Part shown: positions 1,626-53,161 of the stretch, in pieces
How the letters are laid out: the number at the start of each line of letters is the position of its first letter
Numbering within the stretch: the first letter of the stretch is position 1
Origin: Escherichia phage vB_EcoP_HC-25922
Sequence record: OQ555404.1
DNA length: 64,000 bases
Strand: one strand, 5' to 3'
Made by a program: the position numbers and the translations under genes
Notes under the pieces: model-generated
Seen by the model: only the letters and a program-made list of their open reading frames with translations
Told to the model about the DNA's origin: nothing
Databases searched by the model: none

Positions 1626-1652
1626 GCCTCCTCTCGTGGGAGGCTTTTTGTT
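1626..1652 (+). terminator. intrinsic terminator (GCCTCC hairpin plus T5)
   Basis: Stem gcctcc/ggaggc with short loop followed by ttttt directly after the stop at 1614. Confidence 0.55.
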
Positions 1653-2201: not shown

Positions 2202-3756
2202 TTGGAGGAATATATGTCATTAGATAAAGAGATTTACGAAGCTCTAACTGGAGATAAATTGAGTGTAGAGGAAAAGAAAGCTTTGCTCAATATGTTAAAA
2301 GAAAGGGACCAGTGGAGAAAATATAATAAGATGTTAGCTTTTAAAGCTTACGACTTTCAGAAGAAATTCTATGCAGCAGGGTTGAAGCATCGCTTCCGAT
2401 TCCTGTGTGCAGCTAACCGCGTTGGTAAATCTTACAGCGAGGCATACGAGTTTGCTTGTCATGTCACAGGTCGCTATCCAACTTGGTGGACAGGTTACAG
2501 ATTTAATCGACCCATATTGGCTTGGGCGGTAGGGATTACAGGGGACTCTACAAGAAAGGTATTGCAAAAGGAATTGTTTGGAACACCTATCGGAAAGGAT
2601 ATGAATCTAATAGGAACAGGTGTTATTCCTCGTGATGCTATCGTATTGGACACGATAGAACGAGATGGGAACAAATTACAGATTGTACAAATTAAGCATC
2701 AAAACGCGAGAGGCGAGTTTGACGGTTTAAGTACATTAGAGTTCCGTTCTACCCAACAGGGTGAACATACATTGATGGGTGCTACAGTTGATTATATTTG
2801 GCTGGACGAAGAAGATCCATATGAATCTATGGCAATCTTCTCTCAGTGCGTAACACGTACACTTACAACTAAAGGTTTAGTTACTATTACAGCTACACCA
2901 GAGAACGGTTTAACAGAGCTGGTGGATAAGTTTATGAAAGGTGAAGGAGATGAGAACACAGGTTCTCTGTATTTCCAGAATGCTTCTTGGTGGGATGCTC
3001 ATGTAGATTTAGGTGGACATATCACTGACCAAGATATTAAAGACATGACTGAAGGTATTCCAACATGGCAGTTAGAGATGCGTTCAAAAGGTATGCCGTT
3101 GCTTGGTTCTGGTTTGATTTATGATGTATCAGATGACATGATTAAGTGTGATCCCTTTGAGATACCTGATACGTGGAAACGTGTTTGTGCTATTGATATT
3201 GGTATTGATCACCCGACAGCCGCTGTTTGGACAGCATATGATGCTAACACTGATACGATTTATGTTTATGACTGCTATAAAGAAGGTGGGTTTACTCCGG
3301 TGTACCATGCACCAGCTATTAATGGTCGTGGTCAGTGGATTCCAGTTATTCTTCCTCACGATGCCGATAATATTGAGAAGGGAAGTGGTTCGTCTGTTGC
3401 TCAATTCTATAAGAATGCAGGGGTTAATGTACAGAGTGATAACCTTCTACAACAAGATTGGAATGGATGGTAAGAAGAACTTCTTTGTAGAGCCGGGAAT
3501 TACTGATATTCGTGAACGTATGATGTCAGGTCGTTTTAAAATCTTTAACATTGCTTCGTGTGCTAAACTCTTTGAAGAGAAAGCTCGCTATCACCGTAAG
3601 GTTGGCAAGATTGTTAAGGAACATGATGACTTGATGGATGCTATGCGATATTCAGCTTGTTCTGTAACACATCGTGGACGTAGTAAGCATGATGCTAGTT
3701 ATGGTAGTTCATCGCTTTATCAAGACAATATTAACAGATGGAATCAGACCTACTAA
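2202..3756 (+). CDS. terminase large subunit; reading frame switches to +1 near 3470
   Basis: Walker A-like AANRVGKS, nuclease-domain motifs CAIDIGIDHPTAAVW and PHDA in frame 0 (2202..3473), then the C-terminal KEHDDLMDAMRY motif only in the +1 frame (to 3756). Confidence 0.75.
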
Positions 3757-9271: not shown

Positions 9272-9378
9272 CTGTTATTCTACTAGCACTTATTGTCAGT
9301 GCAGGTGTGAAAATTACATTTAGAAAGAGTTCTGGTGTTTTCTGTAATCACTATGTTAAATCTAGTACATAAGAATAA

Positions 9379-9407
9379 AGCTGCCTTCGGGCGGCTTTTC
9401 TTGTTTT
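9379..9407 (+). terminator. intrinsic terminator (UUCG-loop hairpin plus T-run)
   Basis: agctgcc-ttcg-ggcggct hairpin followed by ttttcttgtttt. Confidence 0.6.
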
Positions 9408-9471
9408 AAGACCTATACACGACCGAATGTAATGTATATTCTTTGTCTACATACAACTAGGAGGACAATCT

Positions 9472-10224
9472 ATGGCTATGCCAGACGTTCAGAACCCAAT
9501 TAATACCTACGGATGGCTTAAGAAGGCTGTGTCCCTCTGGGCCGACCGTGATGACCCTGAATTTGTTAATCAGATTCCGAACTTTATTAACTTTGCAGAA
9601 AAGGAAATCTATCGTAATTTACGTATTCCTCCTTTGGAAAAAGAAGTATACTTAGATATTAAAGATGGTGTGGCTTTTATTCCACCAGACTATTTAGAAG
9701 CTCAGTGGATGATGAGAGCCAAAGATGGCACAATCTTCCAAGTAACCTCTCCTGAAGAGATTAGCTATCGTAGACAGCATGGAACAATTAACCCATCTCA
9801 CTGGAATAACCAACCTGTCAACTTTGCTCGTTTCGGTAGTCGTTTCATTTTCTACCCTAGCATCGAAGCAGATACCCCGTACTACCCTGATGATGGAAGC
9901 CCTTTGATTCCAGCAGAAAACTCAGTGATTCTTAGCTATTATGCAGACCCACCGGAATTCCATGAAGATACAGATACTAGTACTATTCTTACTATAGCAC
10001 CGGAACTTCTTCTGTACTTCACCCTACGTCATGCTTGTCTCTTTGTTCAAGATGATAATGGTGTTCAGAAATGGTCAGCATTAGGAAAAGCTATCCTTGA
10101 TGAAATGGTAGAACAGAATAAGAAACAAGAGTACTCAGGTTCACCTATCGCAATTCCGAATAACATGACTCGACTTCAGAGCAGCTTGCCTGATATTTAT
10201 GGTATTCGTACTTCTCGTGTATAA
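9472..10224 (+). CDS. hypothetical virion protein
   Basis: 250-aa ORF with AGGAGG RBS in the structural block. Confidence 0.45.
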   Translation: MAMPDVQNPINTYGWLKKAVSLWADRDDPEFVNQIPNFINFAEKEIYRNLRIPPLEKEVYLDIKDGVAFIPPDYLEAQWMMRAKDGTIFQVTSPEEISYRRQHGTINPSHWNNQPVNFARFGSRFIFYPSIEADTPYYPDDGSPLIPAENSVILSYYADPPEFHEDTDTSTILTIAPELLLYFTLRHACLFVQDDNGVQKWSALGKAILDEMVEQNKKQEYSGSPIAIPNNMTRLQSSLPDIYGIRTSRV

Positions 10225-26093: not shown

Positions 26094-26163
26094 TCTAAGA
26101 CCTAAGTCCTATCTCTTATAATGTATATAGGAGGTAGGACATTTTTATTTATAAGGAGACGTT

Positions 26164-29100
26164 ATGGCTAATTTAAAATCGTGGGAAGAAGCTTCCAAAG
26201 CTCCTGCGTATCTGAACGCCTCTCCAGAGCAACAGGCTCAAATGAGAGAACAATACAAGGCAGCAGGGGGCACTATTCCTGAGACTCAACCACAAGAGCA
26301 ACCACAACAAGAAGAACGAGGTGCTATTGGGGAGTTTGCTCAAGGTGTGTCTAACGCTCTTCAATCAGGTGGTGCTAACATTGCAGCTAGTGCTGCTAAA
26401 GGTTTAGGTGGGCTGGTAGAGATTGGTGAAAACCTAACTGGTTCGGAAACAAGCTATGGTAAGCGCATTCAAGAGAACTCTAAGCAATTGCTGGAAGAAC
26501 GCTTATCCAAGATAGAAGATGGTTTTGGTAAAACAGCTGGTCAGTATGCTGGTGTTGCTGCTGATATCGGTTTGACAGTTGCAAACCCTGCTGTTGCTGC
26601 TGCTGTGATTGCAGCTCGTGAAACAGGTCGTGCTTATGCTGATCAAACTCCTAAAGAAGATGAAGATAAATCAGTTTTAGATGCCGCTCTTGTTGGTGGC
26701 GCTAACTACGCTGCTCAGAAGATCCTTCCGGGCATGACTGGTACAGCTTCTACTACTCTTGGTCGTGTAGGACAAAGCGTAGCCTCTAACGCAGTTGCTG
26801 GTGCTAAGGGTGGTGCTATTGTAGGTGCTGCTGAAGCTCAGAACAAATATGGGGATGATACTACTCTCGCTAACGTCTTAGAAGGGGCTATTGAAGAGGG
26901 TGCACTTGGTGCTGCTTATGGTGGGGCGATTGGTGGAGTTCATGGGTTAATAAGCCGTCCTAGCCCTCAAGTGTTTGATCGTACTCCTGAGCATGTTAAG
27001 ACTGACATTGCTGCTGAAGATGAGGCTATTCGTAAAGCTACTAACGCTGATGAACTTCGTGAAGCCTATGCTAAAGCTGAGAATGCTAATGCTGCCTCTG
27101 CTTTAAACCTTCTGGATGAAAATGGTTTCCGAATCACAGATGCAGTTGCTATGGACTCTCCTGCTGTTCAGCGTATTTTAAATACAGACCAAAGCCGCGC
27201 TGAGAAGGCTGCTACGGTTCAGAAAGATAGCTCTAATGTTCCCGGTCTCAATCCTCTCGCTTCTCCTAAGAAGACTCAAGGTAAAGCTTTTGCTGACAAT
27301 GAGTACAACCAGAAACAAGCTGTGGCAATGAAAGATGCAATGGCTGACTACACTAAAGATAACACCAAAGCCCTTACTGATGTTCTAGACAACCTAGACC
27401 GAGAGTTAGTAGCTCTGAGAGCAAGTGGTGATTTTACTGGTAGTGCTATTGACATTAAAAACCGTACTCAAGCTGATCGTGATTTTATTGATGCTTATAA
27501 AACTTTTTACAGTGAAGCTAATCGTTTCAAAGCTCGTGATGGTGAAGACCTAAACAACTTCATTGATAAAGCTACTCAGTTGCAGAAGCTCTCTGAAAAT
27601 GTTTCTCCAGAAATGAAGAAGGCCATTGGTGGATTAAAGAAACTAAAAGGTATGCCTGAAGGTTTTAACCCTATCCAAGATGCTTTCACTCTGAATAATA
27701 CAGCTAAGTTCATGAGTAACCAAGACCGTGGTTGGACCTCTCTGACTGATGACGGTTTTCGTGAAGCTCCGGCTCCTGTGTTAGTTAAGAATCCTCTCGG
27801 TGCAGCCAAGTATGTACTTAACCGCTTTACTTCCGATCGTGCTCGTGCTCAACGTGAGAAGCAACAGTCAGCTAATAGTGAAGCTATCCGCTCTTTGGCT
27901 AGGGCTGATTTAGAAGTACAACGAGCTAGGACTCAGGCTGAAGAAGCAAGAGCAAAAATGGAAGAAGAACCAACCACAGAAGACATCAAATTCCGTACTC
28001 AAAATGATGCACCTTCCGAACCGGTTCGTGAGGAGCCTTCTGCTACTACTGTGACGGAAGAAATTCCTTCCTCTCCAGCTCCAACTGAAACACCTCTTAC
28101 TGCGAGGGATTTGGTTGCTCAAAGACGTGCTCTCCAACAAGCAGAGCTTAGACGTCAAGAAGCTGAAGCTGCTCAGGCTCAAGAAAGTGCTACACCAGAA
28201 CCTGAACCACAGCAAGAAGCTCTTACAGCTAGAGAATTAGTAGCTCAGCGTAGGGCTGTAGCAGAGGCTAAGAAACGTCAAGAGGCAGAAGAAGCAGAAC
28301 GTGCTAAAGAAGCTCCTAAGGAAGCCGTAGAAGAACCTAAAGAGAAACCTGAGCCATTACCTGCTCGTGCTCCTAAAGCTCCTGAGAAGGCTCCTGAGCC
28401 TGTTAAACCGTCACTTGGTGTAGAGCGTCTAGCTTCTATGTCAACTGCTGCTCGTCAAGCAACGAAAGACCGTGCTGATCGATTTGCTCGTTCTTTGTAT
28501 TCGGCTGCTGCTAAAGCTAAAGCCACTGCGGAAAATTTCCTTTCTTACAAGGGAGATCCTAAAGAGCTTATGCGTCGTATCCGTCAGGAAGACCAAGCAA
28601 ACAACACACAGCGTCATGAAGAGATGGCTAGAAACCAACTAGCTTCACAGCAAGGCATTGCTTCTGCTAAATCTCAACATGTTCGTGCTTCTTTTGCTGA
28701 TTGGGTGAAAGAACGTGGGTTGCCTTCTGATATTGCTACTAAGGCTTTACGGGCTGAAGAGAAAGGTTTAGGTGGGAACGTCACAAGTCTAGATTCACTG
28801 AAGCGAAGAGCTGAGCGTTTATATCAGAAACAAAGAGATGATGAGTTTGACCGTCTCTATCGAGAGGCTCTGGAAGAGAATAAAGCTTTTGATAAGAGAG
28901 ATGCTCCTAAACTGGTAGACCAGAAGAAAGAGCTTCAGGATGAAATTGGTGCGTTGCTTGATGCTGAACCATTACGTCCTGCTCAGAAAGATGCTATGCG
29001 TAGGATTATGGAAGACTTCGTGGAGAGTAAGTTTAAATCTTCAGAGAGAGCTGGAAGGGTTGAGGCTTTGGAAGTTGGTCAGATGAAGGATGTGTGGGAT

Positions 29101-30609
29101 GGGTTTATTAATACCTATAACCGAGAAGTTAACATGTTCAACAAGGCTAACAAGAATTCTCAATACGAAGCAGCAGCTAAACACTTGCAAGCACGTCAAG
29201 AACGTCTTGAGACGCTCCGTAACAGAGCTAAGGCTCGCAGTGATGCTAAGGCAGCCATGGAGGCTGAGAAGCAGTCCTTGGAGGCTATAGCGGCTCAGAA
29301 ATCAGAGATAGAGAAGATGTTCAAAGAATTGCCTGAAAGTGTCAGAGAGGCTCAGGAAGGGCGTACTTTGAAACAGCTTGCTGCTCACCATGATAAGAAC
29401 TCTCCAGTACCACCAGAGCGTTTCCGTAGTATCATTGAACGTATTCACAACGCTGAGAGTGATTACCTCGATCGCAAACGTCGTTTGACCGAAGCAGAGG
29501 AAGATGCTCGTGAAGCTAAGTGGAATAGGATGTATGAACAGGCTGAGGAAATGAACCGTAAGTTTGATATCGATGCTAGAGTGAAGAGAGATAAGGCTCT
29601 GAAGGAAGCTCAAGAACGAGAGAATGACTTAATGGCAGTTCAACGTCAGCGTGACGACATTCATAAGCGTTTGGTCAATACTCTGGAAGAGAAGGGAGTT
29701 TCTAGAGAAGATGCTGAAGCATATGCTGGGTCTTACATGGATAATCGGTATGCTTTGTTAGAGAAACCAATGACTCCAGTGGAACATCAGAATGCTCGTG
29801 CTCGTATCGAATCTGACGTAGAGAAGTTTGTTAAGAAATACGAAACAGCTACTCCAATCGAAAGAGAGATTGCTAAAGCAACTGGTGATGCAGATGGGAA
29901 ACCTTCTGACTTAGATGCAGAAACATTAAAAGCTATCGAAGATGCTCGTAAAGTTGATTCCGATTTTAAGAAACTCTTAGATGAAGAGAAGGAAATGGAG
30001 AAGATTCGTTCAGCTCTACCTGAAGATGAAAGATCTCAGGCGAACTCTGATATTCTGGAAAGTATTAAGAAACAGGAAGATGATTTTGCTAGCAAAGCAG
30101 AGAAAGCTTTTATTGAAGGGAAGGACTTGCAGGAGTTAGCGAGTGTTGCAGAAGTTCTAGATAGGGTTCATGGTGCAGACAAGGCTGGTAACAACCGTCG
30201 ATTTGTACGTGCTCTACAGACTGCTGCCGAGAACAAGAAACGTTATGGGGATAATCCAGTGGCTTGGTTTAGTGCTGATGATTATTCTGCTATTGCGAAA
30301 CTTGGTGCTGCTTCGGCAGGTGGTAACAAATCTCGAGCACTTGAGAAGATCTTTGGTTCTACAGCAGAACAAGCTAAAGGGAAACTTTTAGGGCGGGATG
30401 ATGTAGCTAAGATTAGACGTGTGATTGAAGCGAATCCCAATGTTAAGATTCCTTCTTACAAGACAACTACTCGACAAGAGTACATGCAGTTCTTGGAGAA
30501 GTATAATGACGAGGGAGAGTTGAAAGTCAAACGTGGTTCTCTGTCTGACAAGTTGGAGAGAGGTAAGCGTCAAGCTAAACTCCGTGTTAGAGTTCGAGCT
30601 AAGGAGTAA
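26164..30609 (+). CDS. large alpha-helical virion protein (tape-measure-like or internal core protein)
   Basis: 1481 aa, Ala-rich N-terminus, long coiled-coil regions, internal repeat LTAR(D/E)LVAQRRA; AAGGAGA RBS. Confidence 0.5.
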   Translation: MANLKSWEEASKAPAYLNASPEQQAQMREQYKAAGGTIPETQPQEQPQQEERGAIGEFAQGVSNALQSGGANIAASAAKGLGGLVEIGENLTGSETSYGKRIQENSKQLLEERLSKIEDGFGKTAGQYAGVAADIGLTVANPAVAAAVIAARETGRAYADQTPKEDEDKSVLDAALVGGANYAAQKILPGMTGTASTTLGRVGQSVASNAVAGAKGGAIVGAAEAQNKYGDDTTLANVLEGAIEEGALGAAYGGAIGGVHGLISRPSPQVFDRTPEHVKTDIAAEDEAIRKATNADELREAYAKAENANAASALNLLDENGFRITDAVAMDSPAVQRILNTDQSRAEKAATVQKDSSNVPGLNPLASPKKTQGKAFADNEYNQKQAVAMKDAMADYTKDNTKALTDVLDNLDRELVALRASGDFTGSAIDIKNRTQADRDFIDAYKTFYSEANRFKARDGEDLNNFIDKATQLQKLSENVSPEMKKAIGGLKKLKGMPEGFNPIQDAFTLNNTAKFMSNQDRGWTSLTDDGFREAPAPVLVKNPLGAAKYVLNRFTSDRARAQREKQQSANSEAIRSLARADLEVQRARTQAEEARAKMEEEPTTEDIKFRTQNDAPSEPVREEPSATTVTEEIPSSPAPTETPLTARDLVAQRRALQQAELRRQEAEAAQAQESATPEPEPQQEALTARELVAQRRAVAEAKKRQEAEEAERAKEAPKEAVEEPKEKPEPLPARAPKAPEKAPEPVKPSLGVERLASMSTAARQATKDRADRFARSLYSAAAKAKATAENFLSYKGDPKELMRRIRQEDQANNTQRHEEMARNQLASQQGIASAKSQHVRASFADWVKERGLPSDIATKALRAEEKGLGGNVTSLDSLKRRAERLYQKQRDDEFDRLYREALEENKAFDKRDAPKLVDQKKELQDEIGALLDAEPLRPAQKDAMRRIMEDFVESKFKSSERAGRVEALEVGQMKDVWDGFINTYNREVNMFNKANKNSQYEAAAKHLQARQERLETLRNRAKARSDAKAAMEAEKQSLEAIAAQKSEIEKMFKELPESVREAQEGRTLKQLAAHHDKNSPVPPERFRSIIERIHNAESDYLDRKRRLTEAEEDAREAKWNRMYEQAEEMNRKFDIDARVKRDKALKEAQERENDLMAVQRQRDDIHKRLVNTLEEKGVSREDAEAYAGSYMDNRYALLEKPMTPVEHQNARARIESDVEKFVKKYETATPIEREIAKATGDADGKPSDLDAETLKAIEDARKVDSDFKKLLDEEKEMEKIRSALPEDERSQANSDILESIKKQEDDFASKAEKAFIEGKDLQELASVAEVLDRVHGADKAGNNRRFVRALQTAAENKKRYGDNPVAWFSADDYSAIAKLGAASAGGNKSRALEKIFGSTAEQAKGKLLGRDDVAKIRRVIEANPNVKIPSYKTTTRQEYMQFLEKYNDEGELKVKRGSLSDKLERGKRQAKLRVRVRAKE

Positions 30610-31581: not shown

Positions 31582-32403
31582 TTATTCCCAAGTTTTATCT
31601 AACCATGACCAATCAAAGAGGTCACCTTCAGCTTGTCCAACGAAGAGCAATCGAGCGTTTTCTAACATCTTATCTTCTGCTTCTTCCTCGAACCTCTTAT
31701 AGTATTCCATTCGTATAATATGATAAAGAGTCCACTTATCGAATACCTTCTCAATAAGTTTGATTGCAGCCTTGCTACCAATGCCTTTACGGCGCATAAC
31801 CAAGTTGCCACCCCACATCATTTCAACCTTCTCACCACAACCGGGAATATTATCTGTATTATCCCCAATCAACATTTGGTAGAAGAAATTCTGCCATGCT
31901 ACTTCTTCTGATACATAATGAGGAGGTACTTCTTTCTGTCTTTCTCCACAAGCCCAACGATAATGCCATCCGGGAGTGATTAACAAATCTTTATCACGAG
32001 TACAGATAATCGTATTCTTATCTCGTCTCTGTCTTTCAGCTAGGGCATCATCTGCCTCTCTCCCAAAGACTTCTACATACTCGTAATTTTCTTTAATATA
32101 ATCACTAACGTTCTGCCAGTGGTGGGGTCTTTCTCCCGGTGGGCGATTAGCTTTGTAGCCTTGCTGTTTAGCAATGTTAAATCGAAAATTACCACCTTCG
32201 CTGAAGTAAAAGATTGTTTTCTCGCAACCAGACCTTGCAATGATTACATCTATTTTATGCTGAAGTCGTTCAATCAAGAATCCATAATCAACTGGAACAC
32301 GACCTGTGTCTAGAAAAGGATGCTCTTGTGTAAGAGCACCGACTTCATATCGCAGAACATCTGCATCCACAATTGCTACTTCAGGATAGATTACATCAGA
32401 CAT
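31582..32403 (-). CDS. 5'-3' exonuclease / flap endonuclease (FEN, PIN-like)
   Basis: Motifs IVDADVL, GYKANR, EADDALA, TRDKDLL, IGDNTDNIPG, GIGSKAA; start set at ATG 32403 with GGAGAG RBS. Confidence 0.8.
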   Translation of the reverse strand: MSDVIYPEVAIVDADVLRYEVGALTQEHPFLDTGRVPVDYGFLIERLQHKIDVIIARSGCEKTIFYFSEGGNFRFNIAKQQGYKANRPPGERPHHWQNVSDYIKENYEYVEVFGREADDALAERQRRDKNTIICTRDKDLLITPGWHYRWACGERQKEVPPHYVSEEVAWQNFFYQMLIGDNTDNIPGCGEKVEMMWGGNLVMRRKGIGSKAAIKLIEKVFDKWTLYHIIRMEYYKRFEEEAEDKMLENARLLFVGQAEGDLFDWSWLDKTWE

Positions 32404-32992
32404 AGAGTTCTCTCCGTGTCCGTACAACAATCCAGTTTAAATAATCTACTGCATCTTCTACAGTAGAATTATTCGCTAGGTAGTATGTATTTCTCTGACT
32501 GCCTTCAATGTAGGAACGAGAATCTCCTTTAAAATCACAACCTTCACGAATCACCTGAATTACCTGAACATGGAAATGTTTCTCTAGTTCTTCAACTTCG
32601 GCTTTGAACCCACCATCAGAGAAGACGATAACATCATTCTGTGATGGGATACGTTGTTGAATACTGCTAACAGCAAGTTTACCCATGCAGGTCTCACCAA
32701 ACATAGGTTTCAGGTAATCCTCACTAGTTGCAATCATCAAGTCTCGAACTGACTTACCGTCCCATTCAGGACGGCTATGTTCTTTCCACTCACGGTCGTT
32801 GTACAGCTCCATGAACTCATAAAGAGGTAGACCTAATGCAGCAGCAGCCACTCGATATATAGGCTCCTTAAAAGCCTTTACATGCGGCCTAAACTCGGTG
32901 TTACCAAGTGTTTTCTCTAACCAAGAATTAGCGATTGTATCTTTACCACAACCCGGTGGTCCATTCAGAATTACTACTAATGGTTTACTCAT
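32396..32992 (-). CDS. P-loop nucleotide kinase (dNMP kinase-like)
   Basis: Walker A GPPGCGKDT at the N-terminus; 198 aa. Confidence 0.5.
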   Translation of the reverse strand: MSKPLVVILNGPPGCGKDTIANSWLEKTLGNTEFRPHVKAFKEPIYRVAAAALGLPLYEFMELYNDREWKEHSRPEWDGKSVRDLMIATSEDYLKPMFGETCMGKLAVSSIQQRIPSQNDVIVFSDGGFKAEVEELEKHFHVQVIQVIREGCDFKGDSRSYIEGSQRNTYYLANNSTVEDAVDYLNWIVVRTRRELYV

Positions 32993-33642
32993 TATTGAAT
33001 CATCCCTTGAAGATCTTCTTTATCAAAGTGCTTCTCTACTACCGCTTCATACAGATCACGATTCTCTGAATAACGACGATAGAAGGTTCCGTGTGAAATT
33101 CCCAACTCTTGCTGGATGTGATCATGTGGGATGCCGAGAAAGAGCATTGAGAACATGCTTGCCATCTTACGGTTTTCCATAATGTCACTCAGGTCTTGGA
33201 AGAAGAAAAAGATTCTAGATTCCAAGAACGGGTCTCCAGTAGAATCATGCTTATCCATCGCAATCTCTAAAGGACTTTCCCATGAATTCATCTCAGGAGG
33301 TCTAAACATATCAGCCTCTGGAATAGAGTAGATACGTCGGTCTCCAACTGTCTGGCGATTAGAACGAATCGACCAGATGATATTCTTGACACGATAAGTC
33401 ATGTGCTCAATATCTTTTTCATCAGTGAGCAGAAGTTCTTCTTGCTTTGCAAACACAAAACGCCAAGCGTTCAGTAATACTTCCTGAGCAACATCCTCTG
33501 CCTCGTGATAGTCTTTAATGTCATACATAAAATACTTATGCACAACTTTCCAGTTCTCTCGATAAAATTCATCGAAGGTTGGATAATATTTAATAGGAAT
33601 GCCATGAATACGATAGCGTGTGGGTGTTGTCTTCTTCTTCAT
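32992..33642 (-). CDS. sigma-70 family (ECF-like) sigma factor-like protein
   Basis: Region 2-like [14 protein letters not shown] and region 4-like [11 protein letters not shown] helix-turn-helix. Confidence 0.5.
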
Positions 33643-33666
33643 AAGTCGTCCTTAACTTACTTTATG

Positions 33667-33891
33667 TTAGGCTACACAGAATAGATACATTGCTGTGTCA
33701 GGACAAGGAATGGCTGTCTGAATACCACTTACCTTAATCCACATATCTTCTTCAGAGTCATAATAGGCCCAATAGGATTGGTCTCCATCTACAAAGAACT
33801 TAAAAGTTCGTCCCCAAACTTGATTGTTGTATTCCCATACTGCATGAAGTTGAGTAACGCCTTCTGGTATTGTAAGTTCTGCTCTTATCAT
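33667..33891 (-). CDS. hypothetical protein
   Basis: 74-aa ORF. Confidence 0.35.
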   Translation of the reverse strand: MIRAELTIPEGVTQLHAVWEYNNQVWGRTFKFFVDGDQSYWAYYDSEEDMWIKVSGIQTAIPCPDTAMYLFCVA

Positions 33892-34148
33892 TGTATCCCT
33901 CTCTCTTTGAGAGCTTTAAGTAAACCATTGTGATTAGCAGCACAGGTTGTATAATTATCCTGATACCACTCAAGTGTTGTTGCAAGTGCTACTCCCTGTC
34001 CACTCTGAAGTAAAGGGAGGTCTATATCACACTCAGTTTTTAGGTTTGTTGGTAAGGGCACTAACTGCCTGCTGTTGTCTCTCGTTGAACAAGCTGACAT
34101 ACTCATCGCTAGCACACACATTGTAAAAAACTGGCTTAGTCTTTTCAT
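33888..34148 (-). CDS. o-spanin (outer-membrane lipoprotein), embedded in the i-spanin 3' end
   Basis: Signal sequence ending MSAC (lipobox-like Cys), Pro-rich mature part; out-of-frame overlap with the upstream ORF is typical of embedded spanins. Confidence 0.5.
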   Translation of the reverse strand: MKRLSQFFTMCVLAMSMSACSTRDNSRQLVPLPTNLKTECDIDLPLLQSGQGVALATTLEWYQDNYTTCAANHNGLLKALKERGIQ

Positions 34149-34380
34149 AATGCATCTCTTTGTAAATAGTTTCTGTGTTCTTCTTCCAGTTTGATAAACT
34201 AGTTAGAACTTTCTGAGCCACTTCATCAGCAGCCTTAGCTCTCTCAATCTCGATCTCTTGTTGTTTCTTCTCTTGGTCAAGAGTGTTACTATCATTTCTA
34301 TATTGCTCAAACTTCATGCCACCAAAGAAAATAATAGCTGTGAAAATAAGAAAGCCTATATTGTTTTGAAGCTTTTCCAT
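34033..34380 (-). CDS. i-spanin (Rz-like)
   Basis: ATG 34380 with GGAG RBS; N-terminal TM segment then coiled coil; the track 34404 start would read through the terminator T-run. Confidence 0.5.
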   Translation of the reverse strand: MEKLQNNIGFLIFTAIIFFGGMKFEQYRNDSNTLDQEKKQQEIEIERAKAADEVAQKVLTSLSNWKKNTETIYKEMHYEKTKPVFYNVCASDEYVSLFNERQQQAVSALTNKPKN

Positions 34381-34390
34381 TTTAACTCCA

Positions 34391-34415
34391 ACGAAAAAAG
34401 CCACCCGAAGGTGGC
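34391..34415 (-). terminator. hairpin terminator (agccacc-uucg-gguggcu plus U6)
   Basis: On the - strand: U-run after a GC hairpin with UUCG loop; one of three near-identical copies. Confidence 0.5.
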
Positions 34416-34439
34416 TAAGCTATTACAAGGAGAGATTCA

Positions 34440-35180
34440 TTAGAAAGGGCTGTCATCTTCTTCAAAGGTAGACTGCGGCTCTTCGTTAATAGTAGGGATA
34501 CTTGGAGTAGCATCTTTCTGTTCAGTATCAGAAGCTTTAGTAACTTCACGACCAGCCAGAGGGATGTTCTTAGCATCATTAGCTTGGGTCAGAAGATTAC
34601 GTTGGAATGGGAAGATTGCTTGATAAGCAGCCAAGTTAGCATCAGTCTCAGCATACGGTTCGAAGAAGATCAACTCACTACGAGGGGCACCTACAGCATC
34701 ACGATATTTGGTAGGGATTGGAGTGATACTCTTAATGGAGTTTTTCTTCTCACCAGCTTTGTTTACATAGGAATTAACCAGAATGTTAACAGGCTGACCT
34801 AGCAGCATATCTTTAAACCAACCCAAATCACCTTTCAGTGCTTGAACACTTGGGTCGATCATTTTGATCAGATTCAGAATACCAGAGTTCTTAGCTCGTG
34901 GGTTTACGTCGAAAGTTTTAAACTGGCAAGCAGGACGAGGGTCCAGAGGTTTGCCTTCATTATCAGTCCCTGTTGCATCCACGCCAATCAGTTCAAAAGC
35001 CAAGTCCATACGGAAAGCTGGGTTCTTAGGAGTAACTGCTTTAGTCTTAGGGTCAATCCAAGGGTCACGATTGTGAACACCTAAACCTACAACACGAACA
35101 ATACGTGCTTCGTACTCACCATCAGGGATTACATCGTAGTTGGATTTACGGGATACAGACAGTTCAGGGATCATAGACAT
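34440..35180 (-). CDS. single-stranded DNA-binding protein (putative)
   Basis: 246 aa with acidic C-terminal tail FEEDDSPF resembling the SSB tip DDDIPF; AAGGAAA RBS. Confidence 0.5.
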   Translation of the reverse strand: MSMIPELSVSRKSNYDVIPDGEYEARIVRVVGLGVHNRDPWIDPKTKAVTPKNPAFRMDLAFELIGVDATGTDNEGKPLDPRPACQFKTFDVNPRAKNSGILNLIKMIDPSVQALKGDLGWFKDMLLGQPVNILVNSYVNKAGEKKNSIKSITPIPTKYRDAVGAPRSELIFFEPYAETDANLAAYQAIFPFQRNLLTQANDAKNIPLAGREVTKASDTEQKDATPSIPTINEEPQSTFEEDDSPF

Positions 35181-35598
35181 ATTAATATTTCCTTATATAA
35201 ATTTAAGATTGTTGCTCTCTTTGAGCGGTTTGTATACTATATACATTACACTTATACAGATAAGGTTCTATTATACTATAACCTTTTTGGTAGTAGATAA
35301 TAACAAATAGTAATGTATATATATGGTATAGCTAGTAAAGCTATTGCAGGCTTGTATATTGGGCAATTCATAGAATCCCTTGCAAGTACCGAAGGGCAGG
35401 AGCCACCTGCGAGATAAAAATAGAGAATTAAGGAAATCCTTGATTTAGGTTGTAGGGACTCCTAGGGACTTTGATTCTCTATTTAAAAGAATATTAATTA
35501 CTTACTACCTAAATAATTAACTAACTTACTTAAACCAAACTCAAGAATAATAGATAAAAAGATTATTCCTAAGAAAGCTAAAAAGTAAAGGATATAAG
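35181..35598 (-). promoter_or_regulatory. 418-bp AT-rich non-coding region with repeats and palindromes (candidate promoter cluster or origin)
   Basis: No ORF on either strand; TATACTATA twice (35233, 35273), TAGGGACT twice (35451-35470), palindrome CTTGCAAG, hairpin GCAGG-agcca-CCTGC. Confidence 0.35.
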
Positions 35599-36579: not shown

Positions 36580-36803
36580 TATAAGATCTCCCTTTGTTTA
36601 GCGTTAATGACTGACATTGCTGTGATTGGGTTGTTTGTTCCAAGATATTCCAGAACAGGGACACCCTTAGTCGGTTTATCAGCCTCTGTGTAATTCTTAA
36701 CCTTGCCACCAAGAACCTCTAGAGAAGCCTGAGCTTCCGCTTCATCATAGTGAATTCGGTCAACTGTTTTCTTTCCAATCCTATAAGTGTGAACGTAAAT
36801 CAT
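36579..36803 (-). CDS. hypothetical small protein
   Basis: 74 aa; GAGGAAG RBS; start overlaps the previous stop. Confidence 0.45.
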   Translation of the reverse strand: MIYVHTYRIGKKTVDRIHYDEAEAQASLEVLGGKVKNYTEADKPTKGVPVLEYLGTNNPITAMSVINAKQREIL

Positions 36804-41463: not shown

Positions 41464-41781
41464 TCAACTTGAGCTTAAAGCTCCTTTGCGACCGCCTGCT
41501 GATTTTCCAGCACGATCTCCACTTTTGCCGCCGTTCGAGCGATTTCGAGAGACTGATTCAACACGTAAGTTACTTGACGCATTAGAACCTCCCGACTTGA
41601 TTGATCGTTTGTGTCCAACATCTTTACCTCGGACAGCAGCTTTTCCATCGCGCTTTTCAACGATGCGACGTGCACGGTGGCGCTGAGCATCTCCGCTCTT
41701 GCTACCAACGCCGGTCTCACCCCTTGCGATTGCAGTTCTTCGTTCTTGTGCATAATCACGTTTCGCCTTATCGTTCATCAT
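41464..41781 (-). CDS. small highly basic G/S/K/R-rich protein (possible nucleic-acid-binding)
   Basis: ATGATG start with AAGGAG RBS 5 nt upstream; 105 aa; a second almost fully overlapping ORF exists in another frame. Confidence 0.4.
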   Translation of the reverse strand: MMNDKAKRDYAQERRTAIARGETGVGSKSGDAQRHRARRIVEKRDGKAAVRGKDVGHKRSIKSGGSNASSNLRVESVSRNRSNGGKSGDRAGKSAGGRKGALSSS

Positions 41782-41825
41782 AACTCCTTAATATATCAGT
41801 GTACACTAAGGAGTATACATTATGT

Positions 41826-46404: not shown

Positions 46405-46456
46405 ACAATATTCTTATACTGTATATACATTTGAGAGTTATCATATCTACTACCAA

Positions 46457-52736: not shown

Positions 52737-52922
52737 TTATTCTACTTCGAAGTGTTTGATCACACCAGTCAGTACATCAGATTGGAATGTACCCACTAGC
52801 TCTGTACCTCGGAAGAAGTTAACACTTGTTCCAAGTGCTTCAAAGCGATCTGCTTGAATGTCCAGAGATTGAATATTTCCTTCTGCTGACATTGTACGAA
52901 ACATGATTGTGTATTTATTCAC
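52737..52922 (-). CDS. hypothetical protein
   Basis: 61-aa ORF. Confidence 0.35.
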   Translation of the reverse strand: MNKYTIMFRTMSAEGNIQSLDIQADRFEALGTSVNFFRGTELVGTFQSDVLTGVIKHFEVE

Positions 52923-53161
52923 AGACTTGTTACTCCCTTATCTGCTTGTGCAATTGCGATGATACGCTCAGCACATTCCATTGAATATTTATCACCTCGT
53001 TTGAGGAAGGTGATGATTGCAGAGAACTGATTACCAATCATTCTCTTATTTGTGATACCGAACTCTTCACAGAGTTGGTTGATAGCTTTACGAGAGCCTA
53101 CAATCAGAGGCTCTTTTTCTTCGGTCATTCCACGGCTGATCAAATCTTCGATAGACAACAT
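52919..53161 (-). CDS. hypothetical protein
   Basis: 80-aa ORF. Confidence 0.4.
   Translation of the reverse strand: MLSIEDLISRGMTEEKEPLIVGSRKAINQLCEEFGITNKRMIGNQFSAIITFLKRGDKYSMECAERIIAIAQADKGVTSL

What the first reader, a model, noticed from the sequence alone, without database searches (positions are those of the whole stretch)
32992..33642. Phage-encoded sigma-70 family sigma-factor-like protein
The protein has region 2-like ([17 protein letters not shown]) and region 4-like ([11 protein letters not shown]) segments, is 216 aa, and sits in the replication block upstream of the spanins. It may redirect host RNA polymerase to phage middle or late promoters, which would explain why I could not find convincing host-type -35/-10 promoters in front of the structural genes.
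Basis: partly seen in the sequence, partly recalled or inferred. Interest (0 to 1): 0.45.

Follow-up and report, generated by a model that had tools for sequence, protein, structure and literature searches.

The report
Known phiEco32-type phage sigma factor

Summary
The ORF is real: 32992-33642, minus strand, 216 aa. The window is a phiEco32-like E. coli podophage (Gordonclarkvirinae, Suseptimavirus-like). The protein is 80% identical over its full length to phiEco32 gp36. gp36 is a phage sigma factor that forms a holoenzyme with E. coli RNA polymerase core, and its structure is solved (PDB 9m7y chain F, E=1e-117). All 20 residues shown to contact the clamp helices, the -10 element, the -35 region and the flap-tip helix are kept, one as a conservative M-to-L change. 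The partner protein gp79 is encoded at 52919-53161 (-). The gp36 promoter element tAATGTAtA occurs five times exactly (0.53 expected). With two one-mismatch variants, it sits at all six positions syntenic with phiEco32 P6, P13, P26, P40, P58 and P68. Sigma-70-type promoter matches are at chance level. Curated profiles are only sub-threshold (Pfam Sigma70_r2 19.1 bits against a cut-off of 24; no region-4 hit). A predicted model nevertheless retrieves ECF sigma factors after 9m7y. Verdict: observation confirmed, interpretation supported, already known, low interest. Side observation: a seventh, unlisted gp36-type promoter on the + strand (35289-35319) precedes a ~170-nt, near-invariant structured element.

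The parts
32992..33642 (-). Sigma factor gene (216 aa), ortholog of phiEco32 gene 36
   Evidence: ORF. 80% identity to phi32_36. PDB 9m7y_F E=1e-117. PHROG 1740 E=1e-43.
33334..33642 (-). N-terminal, sigma2-like domain (res. 1-103): clamp-helix binding and -10 recognition/melting
   Evidence: Domain limits from PMC12276001. D44, E47, E49, D50, E54, E79, H80, Y83, R84, W90, S91, S94 and N95 are all conserved. Pfam Sigma70_r2 matches res. 26-61 at E=0.0011.
32995..33225 (-). C-terminal, sigma4-like domain (res. 140-216): flap-tip-helix binding and -35 region contact
   Evidence: L140 (M138 in gp36), I144, F168, L169, Y188, R189 and F206 are conserved. The model has helices at 140-215. The paper describes a sigma4-like fold.
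52919..53161 (-). gp79 homologue (80 aa): predicted inhibitor of sigma70/sigmaS holoenzyme and activator of the phage-sigma holoenzyme
   Evidence: 76% identity to phi32_79, E=2e-47. Function from PMC12276001.
1660..1668 (+). P6-like late promoter element TAATGTAGA, 11 nt before the gene6-like ORF (1680-2147)
   Evidence: Same variant as phiEco32 P6 in Table S3 of PMC8948821. A terminator hairpin lies just upstream at 1626-1644.
9430..9438 (+). P13-like late promoter element TAATGTATA before the gene13-like ORF (9472-10224)
26119..26127 (+). P26-like late promoter element TAATGTATA before the gene26-like ORF (26164-30609)
35240..35248 (-). P40-like middle promoter element TAATGTATA. It heads the operon gene40-like, spanins, sigma, dNMP kinase, exonuclease.
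   Evidence: Conserved in 8 of 8 aligned relatives.
41814..41822 (-). P58-like middle promoter element TAATGTATA before the gene58-like ORF (41464-41781)
46424..46454 (-). P68-like middle promoter: GGTAGTAGATA block (G at -37, A at -34), 11-nt spacer, AAATGTATA
   Evidence: P68 is the promoter in the cryo-EM complex, where -37G and -34A are contacted by R187 and Y186.
35289..35319 (+). Candidate seventh gp36-type promoter on the + strand: GGTAGTAGATA, 11-nt spacer, TAATGTATA. It is not among the six published promoters.
   Evidence: Both blocks are invariant and the spacer varies in 8 phages of 3 genera. Absent from Table S3.
35325..35491 (+). Near-invariant structured non-coding element downstream of the candidate + strand promoter
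   Evidence: ~100% identical to phiEco32, whereas the flanking genes are ~80%. Kept in all 98 relatives. Pair counts. RNAalifold gives -36.2 (+ strand) vs -25.9 (- strand). No Rfam hit.

Best explanation
The ORF encodes the phage's own promoter-specificity (sigma) subunit, the ortholog of phiEco32 gp36. It is made as a middle-gene product. It binds E. coli RNA polymerase core. Its sigma2-like N-terminal domain sits on the beta' clamp helices, and a long linker threads the active-centre cleft like sigma3.2. Its compact sigma4-like C-terminal domain sits on the beta flap-tip helix. The holoenzyme recognises a single strong element tAATGTAtA (AATGTA at -14 to -9), melts DNA from -11, and makes an auxiliary contact near -37/-34. 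This turns on middle operons (P40-, P58- and P68-like) and the late structural and lysis operons (P6-, P13- and P26-like). The co-encoded gp79 homologue is expected to displace host sigma70/sigmaS and stabilise the phage-sigma open complex, which switches transcription from host and early genes to middle and late genes. Shown here: orthology, conservation of all mapped functional residues, the partner gene, and the cognate promoters at syntenic positions. Inferred from the phiEco32 experiments: RNAP binding, promoter specificity, timing, and the gp79 effects.
For: The ORF is real and conserved. It is 80% identical over its full length to phi32_36, and the same protein at 100% identity is annotated 'RNA polymerase sigma factor' in phage Bas87. 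PDB 9m7y_F matches at E=1e-117, and at 2e-117 with a family profile. PHROG 1740 matches at E=1e-43. All 20 mapped functional residues are conserved or conservatively replaced. Eleven of them are invariant and three more (S94, L169, I144) at least 90% identical or substituted only conservatively across 19 homologues at 43-97% identity. The AF2 model has two helical domains and a disordered linker. Foldseek finds 9m7y_F at 6e-19, and then almost only ECF sigma factors. Sigma70_r2 is the only recurrent Pfam family (14 of 19 members). A gp79 homologue is present. TAATGTATA occurs exactly 5 times against 0.53 expected, with 0 of 100 shuffles reaching 5. The six syntenic promoter positions carry exactly the published variants. 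Sigma70-type promoter matches are at chance. The published biochemistry and structure are in PMC12276001 and PMC8948821.
Against: No experiment exists on this particular phage. Curated sigma-70 family profiles are not reached: Pfam PF04542 scores 19.1 against a cut-off of 24, TIGR02937 scores 20.6 against 42.9, and there is no region-4 match. 20% of residues differ from gp36, and there is a 2-residue insertion in the linker. A terminator-like hairpin at 34399-34416 (-) lies between the gene40-like ORF and the spanin/sigma genes. How much sigma transcription comes from P40, and how much from read-through of upstream transcripts, is therefore unknown. The two original JMB papers (Savalia 2008, Pavlova 2012) could not be read here.
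Confidence: 0.95

Rival explanations
1. It is an ordinary helix-turn-helix DNA-binding regulator (TetR-like, DUF1492-like or terminase-small-subunit-like). It would act as a repressor or activator, not as an RNA polymerase subunit.
For: There are weak C-terminal HTH-type hits: TetR_N E=0.064, DUF1492 E=0.028, phrog_309 terminase small subunit E=0.36, and TetR-family PDB chains at E=0.02-0.3. No sigma-70 profile reaches its curated threshold.
Against: All these hits are insignificant and cover only ~30-45 residues. The full-length ortholog is seen in a cryo-EM open complex occupying the sigma2 and sigma4 positions on RNAP, and it directs transcription in vitro. The fold search returns ECF sigma factors spanning both domains, and no TetR regulators.
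Confidence: 0.02
2. It is a sigma factor that works alone as a late-only factor with a bipartite promoter, like Salmonella phage 7-11 gp47. There would be no gp79-type switch and no middle class.
For: 7-11 and GAP52 belong to the same wider phage group and use such a system. In this window the -35 region blocks differ between promoter classes.
Against: 7-11 gp47 is only ~15% identical to gp36 and uses GTAAtg-N16-aCTA, and 7-11 lacks gp79. The window protein is 80% identical to gp36. The window has a 76%-identical gp79 homologue. It carries the gp36 single-element motif at the three middle-promoter positions as well.
Confidence: 0.02
3. The gene is a decaying or non-functional copy in this particular genome. 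A frameshift elsewhere in the window suggests sequence damage or errors.
For: The terminase large-subunit homologue in this window is split by a one-base insertion near 3440.
Against: The sigma ORF is intact and full-length. It is 100% identical in protein sequence to the copies in three viable isolated phages (IME267, 101114UKE3, Bas87). Every mapped functional residue is intact.
Confidence: 0.01

Closest known systems
phiEco32 gp36 (phi32_36, YP_001671781.1; PDB 9m7y chain F)
   Same: Full-length ortholog at 80% identity and the same length class (216 vs 214 aa). It has the same genomic position downstream of gene 40 and the spanins. All mapped RNAP- and DNA-contact residues are the same. 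The promoter element is the same and sits at the same six syntenic positions. The partner gp79 is present.
   Different: 20% of residues differ, mostly in helix 1, the 66-78 loop and the linker, which carries a 2-residue insertion. The neighbouring genes differ: the phiEco32 gene 35 (GTP-binding domain) and gene 37 (macro/Appr-1-p domain) are absent here. A 74-aa ORF stands in the gene-37 position, and the dNMP kinase is 198 aa instead of 297 aa.
Bacterial ECF (group 4) sigma factors, e.g. M. tuberculosis SigE/SigH/SigL, P. aeruginosa AlgU, E. coli sigmaE
   Same: Two-domain sigma2-linker-sigma4 architecture of about 200 aa, without regions 1.1 and 3. After 9m7y, the fold search returns almost only these proteins. 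Weak region-2 profile matches occur.
   Different: Sequence similarity is below the curated thresholds, and region 4 is not detectable by sequence. In the ortholog, helix 1 of the NTD is rotated ~70 degrees, sigma4 helix 4 is shorter, and the flap-tip helix binds a hydrophobic groove in a ~100-degree rotated pose. The promoter is dominated by one -10-like element, not a bipartite ECF -35/-10. No anti-sigma factor is known; a co-activator (gp79) is used instead.
Salmonella phage 7-11 gp47 (SaPh711_gp47)
   Same: A phage-encoded sigma in a related prolate-head podophage group. It drives late genes from host RNAP core, with promoters at similar genome positions.
   Different: It is only ~15% identical to gp36. 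Its promoter is bipartite, GTAAtg-N16-aCTA. There is no gp79, no middle class and no host shut-off.
T4 gp55 and B. subtilis phage SPO1 gp28/gp34 (own knowledge, not tested here)
   Same: Phage-encoded divergent sigma-family proteins. They redirect host RNAP core to phage middle or late promoters that are dominated by a single -10-like element.
   Different: No detectable sequence relation was seen in any search here. T4 gp55 lacks a sigma4 domain and depends on gp33 and the sliding clamp.

Membership tests
phiEco32 gp36 family (PHROG 1740, phage RNA polymerase sigma factor) | Full-length sequence similarity to gp36 | tested here: met
   80% identity over 214 aligned residues. phmmer against 9m7y_F gives E=1e-117. 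PHROG 1740 gives E=1e-43 over residues 1-215.
phiEco32 gp36 family (PHROG 1740, phage RNA polymerase sigma factor) | Residues mapped by cryo-EM and mutagenesis: clamp contacts (D44, E47, E49, D50, E54), -10 recognition and melting (E79, H80, Y83, R84, W90, S91, S94, N95), -35 contact (Y186, R187), flap-tip-helix groove (M138, I142, F166, L167, F204) | tested here: met
   19 of 20 are identical and M138 becomes L140. Residue list from PMC12276001.
phiEco32 gp36 family (PHROG 1740, phage RNA polymerase sigma factor) | Cognate tAATGTAtA promoters in front of middle and late operons | tested here: met
   5 exact copies against 0.53 expected. Six syntenic sites carry the published variants.
phiEco32 gp36 family (PHROG 1740, phage RNA polymerase sigma factor) | Co-encoded gp79 partner | tested here: met
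   An 80-aa ORF at 52919-53161 (-), 76% identical to gp79, E=2e-47.
phiEco32 gp36 family (PHROG 1740, phage RNA polymerase sigma factor) | Binds RNAP core and confers promoter-specific initiation | not testable with these tools
   Shown only for phiEco32 gp36.
Sigma-70 family, ECF / group 4 | Region 2 profile match at the curated threshold (Pfam PF04542; NCBIfam TIGR02937) | tested here: not met
   PF04542 scores 19.1 bits against a cut-off of 24 (E=0.0011). TIGR02937 scores 20.6 against 42.9. The signal is consistent but weak: 14 of 19 homologues hit PF04542 at E<=0.01.
Sigma-70 family, ECF / group 4 | Region 4 profile match (PF08281 / PF04545) | tested here: not met
   No hit for the window protein. 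Only 1 of 19 homologues hits PF08281, at E=0.0036.
Sigma-70 family, ECF / group 4 | Sigma2-linker-sigma4 fold | tested here: met
   The AF2 model (pLDDT 74.8) has two helical domains and a disordered linker. After 9m7y_F, Foldseek against PDB returns SigE, SigH, SigL, AlgU, SigW, SigK, RpoE and BldN, with probabilities up to 0.98 but E-values of only 0.014-2. The solved ortholog is described as sigma2- and sigma4-like with deviations.
Sigma-70 family, ECF / group 4 | Bipartite -35/-10 ECF-type promoter and a cognate anti-sigma factor | tested here: not met
   The promoters share a single strong -10-like 9-mer. The -35 region blocks differ between promoters. No anti-sigma is known; gp79 acts as a co-activator.

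The most novel reading that the evidence does not exclude
The regulon of this sigma factor may include a seventh, undescribed promoter on the + strand (35289-35319), back-to-back with P40. It would drive a ~165-nt, near-invariant, structured non-coding RNA (about 35326-35490) that runs antisense to the direction of the middle genes. Such an RNA, or a transcription-activated DNA element such as a replication origin, would be a new component of the gp36/gp79 switch, conserved across Kuravirus, Suseptimavirus and Nieuwekanaalvirus.
Probability: 0.3. Interest if true: 0.45.

Novelty: already known. Interest (0 to 1): 0.1.

Why it matters
For the genome scan, the finding explains the transcription logic of the window. 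Early genes use host sigma70. Middle and late genes use the phage sigma together with gp79, so no host-type promoters precede the structural genes. In practice it corrects annotation: the identical protein is labelled 'hypothetical protein' in RefSeq records such as IME267 and 101114UKE3. It also gives exact promoter coordinates for this genome. Scientifically it adds nothing new about the sigma factor itself, because gp36 is biochemically and structurally characterised. The only possibly new element is the unlisted + strand promoter and its conserved downstream element.

Tried and rejected
1. Single-sequence Pfam and NCBIfam scans gave only sub-threshold region-2 hits. Alone they could not decide the question.
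2. A family profile against PDB sequences added only weak ECF hits, SigW at E=0.029 and SigK at E=0.037.
3. The one-mismatch motif search is not enriched on its own (24 matches against 19.2 expected). Only the exact matches and the syntenic placement are informative.
4. Sigma70-type promoter scans near the gene and in the late region are at chance. No dedicated host-type promoter for the sigma gene was found.
5. The Savalia 2008 and Pavlova 2012 JMB papers are not held. How gene 36 is first transcribed, and whether a rightward transcript at gene 40/41 was ever seen, could not be checked.
6. For the conserved intergenic element: no Rfam family and no tRNA or tmRNA. The single-sequence fold z-score is only -1.55.
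7. The 34-aa + strand ORF 35313-35417 starts inside the promoter motif, so it is unlikely to be on the transcript.
8. GC skew flips at ~30.6 kb together with gene orientation, and gives no origin signal at 35.3 kb.
9. Literature searches for phiEco32 with ncRNA or sRNA found nothing relevant.
10. L002 and L003 were not exported to the sandbox, so phiEco32 proteins were obtained through the translate tool.

Full report
OBSERVATION. An ATG-initiated ORF of 216 aa lies at 32992..33642 on the minus strand (DNA). The ORF is kept at 60-100% protein identity in all 98 related phage records, so it is a real gene. One correction concerns orientation. All genes from about 30.7 kb onward are on the minus strand. 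The transcription order is gene40-like (34440-35180), i-spanin (34033-34404), o-spanin (33888-34148), a 74-aa ORF (33667-33891), sigma, dNMP kinase (32396-32992) and exonuclease (31582-32430). The sigma gene therefore lies downstream of the spanin genes, not upstream.

WHAT THE WINDOW IS. A 5-kb stretch around the gene is 97.4% identical to Escherichia phage IME267 (Gordonclarkvirinae, Suseptimavirus). It is 90-97% identical to other members of this group and more distantly related to phiEco32 (Kuravirus). The window runs from near the left genome end (gene5-like) through the late + strand genes and into the middle and early minus-strand genes.

IDENTITY OF THE PROTEIN. Curated profiles give only weak region-2 signals. 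Pfam Sigma70_r2 scores E=0.0011 and 19.1 bits against a gathering cut-off of 24. NCBIfam sigma70-ECF TIGR02937 scores 20.6 bits against 42.9, and about 15 other ECF models hit residues ~22-63 at E between 4e-6 and 0.1. No region-4 model matches. In contrast, PHROG 1740 ('RNA polymerase sigma factor') matches over residues 1-215 at E=1e-43. tblastn places the protein at 80% identity on phiEco32 gene 36 (phi32_36, 'RNA polymerase sigma factor'). The same protein at 100% identity occurs in IME267 and 101114UKE3, where it is annotated 'hypothetical protein', and in Bas87, where it is annotated 'RNA polymerase sigma factor'. A solved structure exists: PDB 9m7y chain F, 'RNA polymerase ECF sigma factor', E=1e-117.

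[quoted passage not shown] Early genes use the sigma70 holoenzyme, and middle and late genes use the gp36 holoenzyme. gp79 inhibits the sigma70 and sigmaS holoenzymes and stimulates gp36-dependent transcription 3- to 4-fold (PMC12276001).

In the 3.4-A open complex on promoter P68, the gp36 NTD (residues 1-103) sits on the clamp helices like sigma2. A long linker threads the active-centre cleft like sigma3.2. The CTD (residues 138-214) sits on the flap-tip helix like sigma4. Acidic residues D44, E47, E49, D50 and E54 bind the clamp. W90 and Y83 stack at the upstream fork junction. E79, H80, S91, S94 and N95 read -14A, -13A, -12T and -11G. R187 and Y186 contact -37G and -34A. M138, I142, F166, L167 and F204 form the flap-tip-helix groove. 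Mutations of these residues or bases impair transcription. The promoter consensus is tAATGTAtA, with the start site 6-8 nt downstream. Six promoters were mapped, in front of genes 6, 13, 26, 40, 58 and 68 (PMC8948821).

TESTS ON THIS WINDOW.
- Residues. All 20 residues listed above are present at the aligned positions; the only change is M138 to L140. In an alignment of 19 homologues at 43-97% identity, D44, E47, D50, E79, Y83, W90, S91, N95, F168, Y188, R189 and F206 are invariant.
- Partner. An 80-aa ORF at 52919-53161 (-) is 76% identical to gp79.
- Promoters. TAATGTATA occurs exactly five times against 0.53 expected, and no shuffle of 100 reaches five. Four of these lie 32-59 nt upstream of the gene13-, gene26-, gene40- and gene58-like ORFs. 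One-mismatch variants lie upstream of the gene6-like ORF (TAATGTAGA, 1660) and the gene68-like ORF (AAATGTATA, 46424). These are exactly the six variants listed for P6, P13, P26, P40, P58 and P68 in Table S3 of PMC8948821.
- -35 region. The P68-like site keeps G at -37 and A at -34.
- Host-type promoters. Sigma70-type matches are at chance both around the gene (15 against 11.5+-3.4) and in the structural region (42 against 42.1+-7.1).
- Fold. An AlphaFold2 model built on the 19-sequence alignment (pLDDT 74.8) has two helical domains joined by a low-confidence linker at residues 99-122. Foldseek against the PDB gives 9m7y_F at E=6e-19. About 25 further hits are almost all ECF sigma factors (SigE, SigH, SigL, AlgU, SigW, SigK, RpoE, BldN), with probabilities up to 0.98 but E-values of only 0.014-2.
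- Sequence profiles. A family profile against PDB sequences adds only weak ECF hits, SigW at 0.029 and SigK at 0.037. Sigma70_r2 is the only Pfam family hit by most members, 14 of 19.

MECHANISM AND MEMBERSHIP. The protein is a member of the gp36 family, and every family feature that could be tested here is met. It works like an ECF-type sigma and has that fold. It does not reach the curated sequence thresholds of the sigma-70 or ECF families, and its promoter architecture and flap-tip-helix docking deviate from theirs. I therefore describe it as a divergent, structurally sigma-70-family-like phage sigma, and I do not file it as a formal ECF member.

The sigma gene lies in the operon headed by the P40-like promoter, which is itself gp36-dependent. 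This implies positive feedback. First expression must then come from read-through of upstream transcripts. That step is an inference, because the Pavlova 2012 paper could not be read. A terminator-like hairpin at 34399-34416 (-) lies between the gene40-like ORF and the spanins.

RIVALS. A generic HTH regulator is supported only by insignificant C-terminal hits and is contradicted by the ortholog's structure. A 7-11-type late-only sigma is contradicted by the 80% identity to gp36, the presence of gp79, and the middle promoters. A dead gene is contradicted by its identity to the copies in viable isolates.

NOVELTY. The finding is already known. The only residual value is in annotation.

SIDE LEAD. 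The fifth exact motif copy (35311-35319) is on the + strand, in the 317-bp gap between the gene40-like and gene41-like ORFs, back-to-back with P40. It shares the upstream block GGTAGTAGATA with the P68-like promoter in the same register, with G at -37 and A at -34. The bipartite pattern occurs twice in the window against 0.00 expected. The site is present in phiEco32 at 36704 (+) but is not among the six published promoters.

Across eight phages of three genera, both blocks are invariant while the 11-nt spacer varies. The ~170 nt downstream are nearly 100% identical between the window and phiEco32, whereas the flanking genes are ~80% identical. The region is kept in all 98 relatives.

A 5' hairpin shows compensatory changes (CG, AU and UA at one pair; UA and GC at another) and three GC-to-GU changes. 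The long 3' hairpin is invariant and rich in G.U pairs. These would be A.C mismatches on the minus strand. Overall, 97.3% of cells are paired against 40-52% in the slid controls. RNAalifold gives -36.2 kcal/mol on the + strand and -25.9 on the minus strand. The caveats are that only eight sequences were used and that the structure was derived from those same sequences.

There is no Rfam match, and no relevant paper was found. An alternative reading exists. On the minus strand the long hairpin is followed by TTTTTAT, so it could simply terminate gene-41 transcripts.

Noticed in passing
window 35289-35491 (+): A seventh gp36-type promoter-like site (GGTAGTAGATA, 11-nt spacer, TAATGTATA) lies on the + strand, back-to-back with P40. 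It is not among the six published phiEco32 promoters. It is followed by a ~170-nt element that is near-invariant across three genera, with a covarying 5' hairpin and a G.U-rich invariant 3' hairpin. It could be an ncRNA, an antisense transcript, or an origin-like or terminator element. No Rfam family matches.
   Followed up: partly
window 3440-3441 (terL homologue, ORFs 2202-3473 and 3148-3756): The terminase large-subunit homologue is split into two overlapping ORFs by a one-base insertion (GAGTGATAACC here, GAGTGA-GACC in phiEco32). The closest relatives align 301 window bases to 300 of their own bases and annotate an intact terL. It is either a sequencing error or a real frameshift.
   Followed up: partly
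window 1626-1644 and 9377-9398 (+): GC-rich terminator hairpins with T-runs lie immediately upstream of the P6-like and P13-like late promoters. These form terminator-promoter modules that partition the late region.
   Followed up: no
window 34399-34416 (-): A terminator-like hairpin (AGCCACCTTCGGGTGGCT followed by TTTTTCG) lies between the gene40-like ORF and the spanin/sigma genes. Expression of the sigma gene from P40 would need read-through.
   Followed up: no
window 32396-33891 compared with phiEco32 33777-35273: The gene content around the sigma gene differs from phiEco32. There is no homologue of gene 35 (GTP-binding domain) or gene 37 (macro/Appr-1-p domain). A 74-aa ORF (33667-33891) occupies the gene-37 position. 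The dNMP kinase is 198 aa instead of 297 aa and abuts the sigma stop codon.
   Followed up: no
window promoters at 9430, 26119, 35240 versus 1660, 41814, 46424, 35311: The -35 regions fall into classes. The late P13- and P26-like sites share TAAGACCTA at -38 to -30, and P40 has the related TAGAACCT. The P6-, P58-, P68-like and new + strand sites have GG.A with G at -37 and A at -34. This may underlie the middle versus late timing or the dependence on gp79.
   Followed up: partly
RefSeq NC_070983.1 (IME267) and NC_070982.1; locus L004 3501-4151: The identical sigma protein is annotated 'hypothetical protein' in several GenBank and RefSeq records of close relatives. This is an annotation gap and not a biological difference.
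   Followed up: yes
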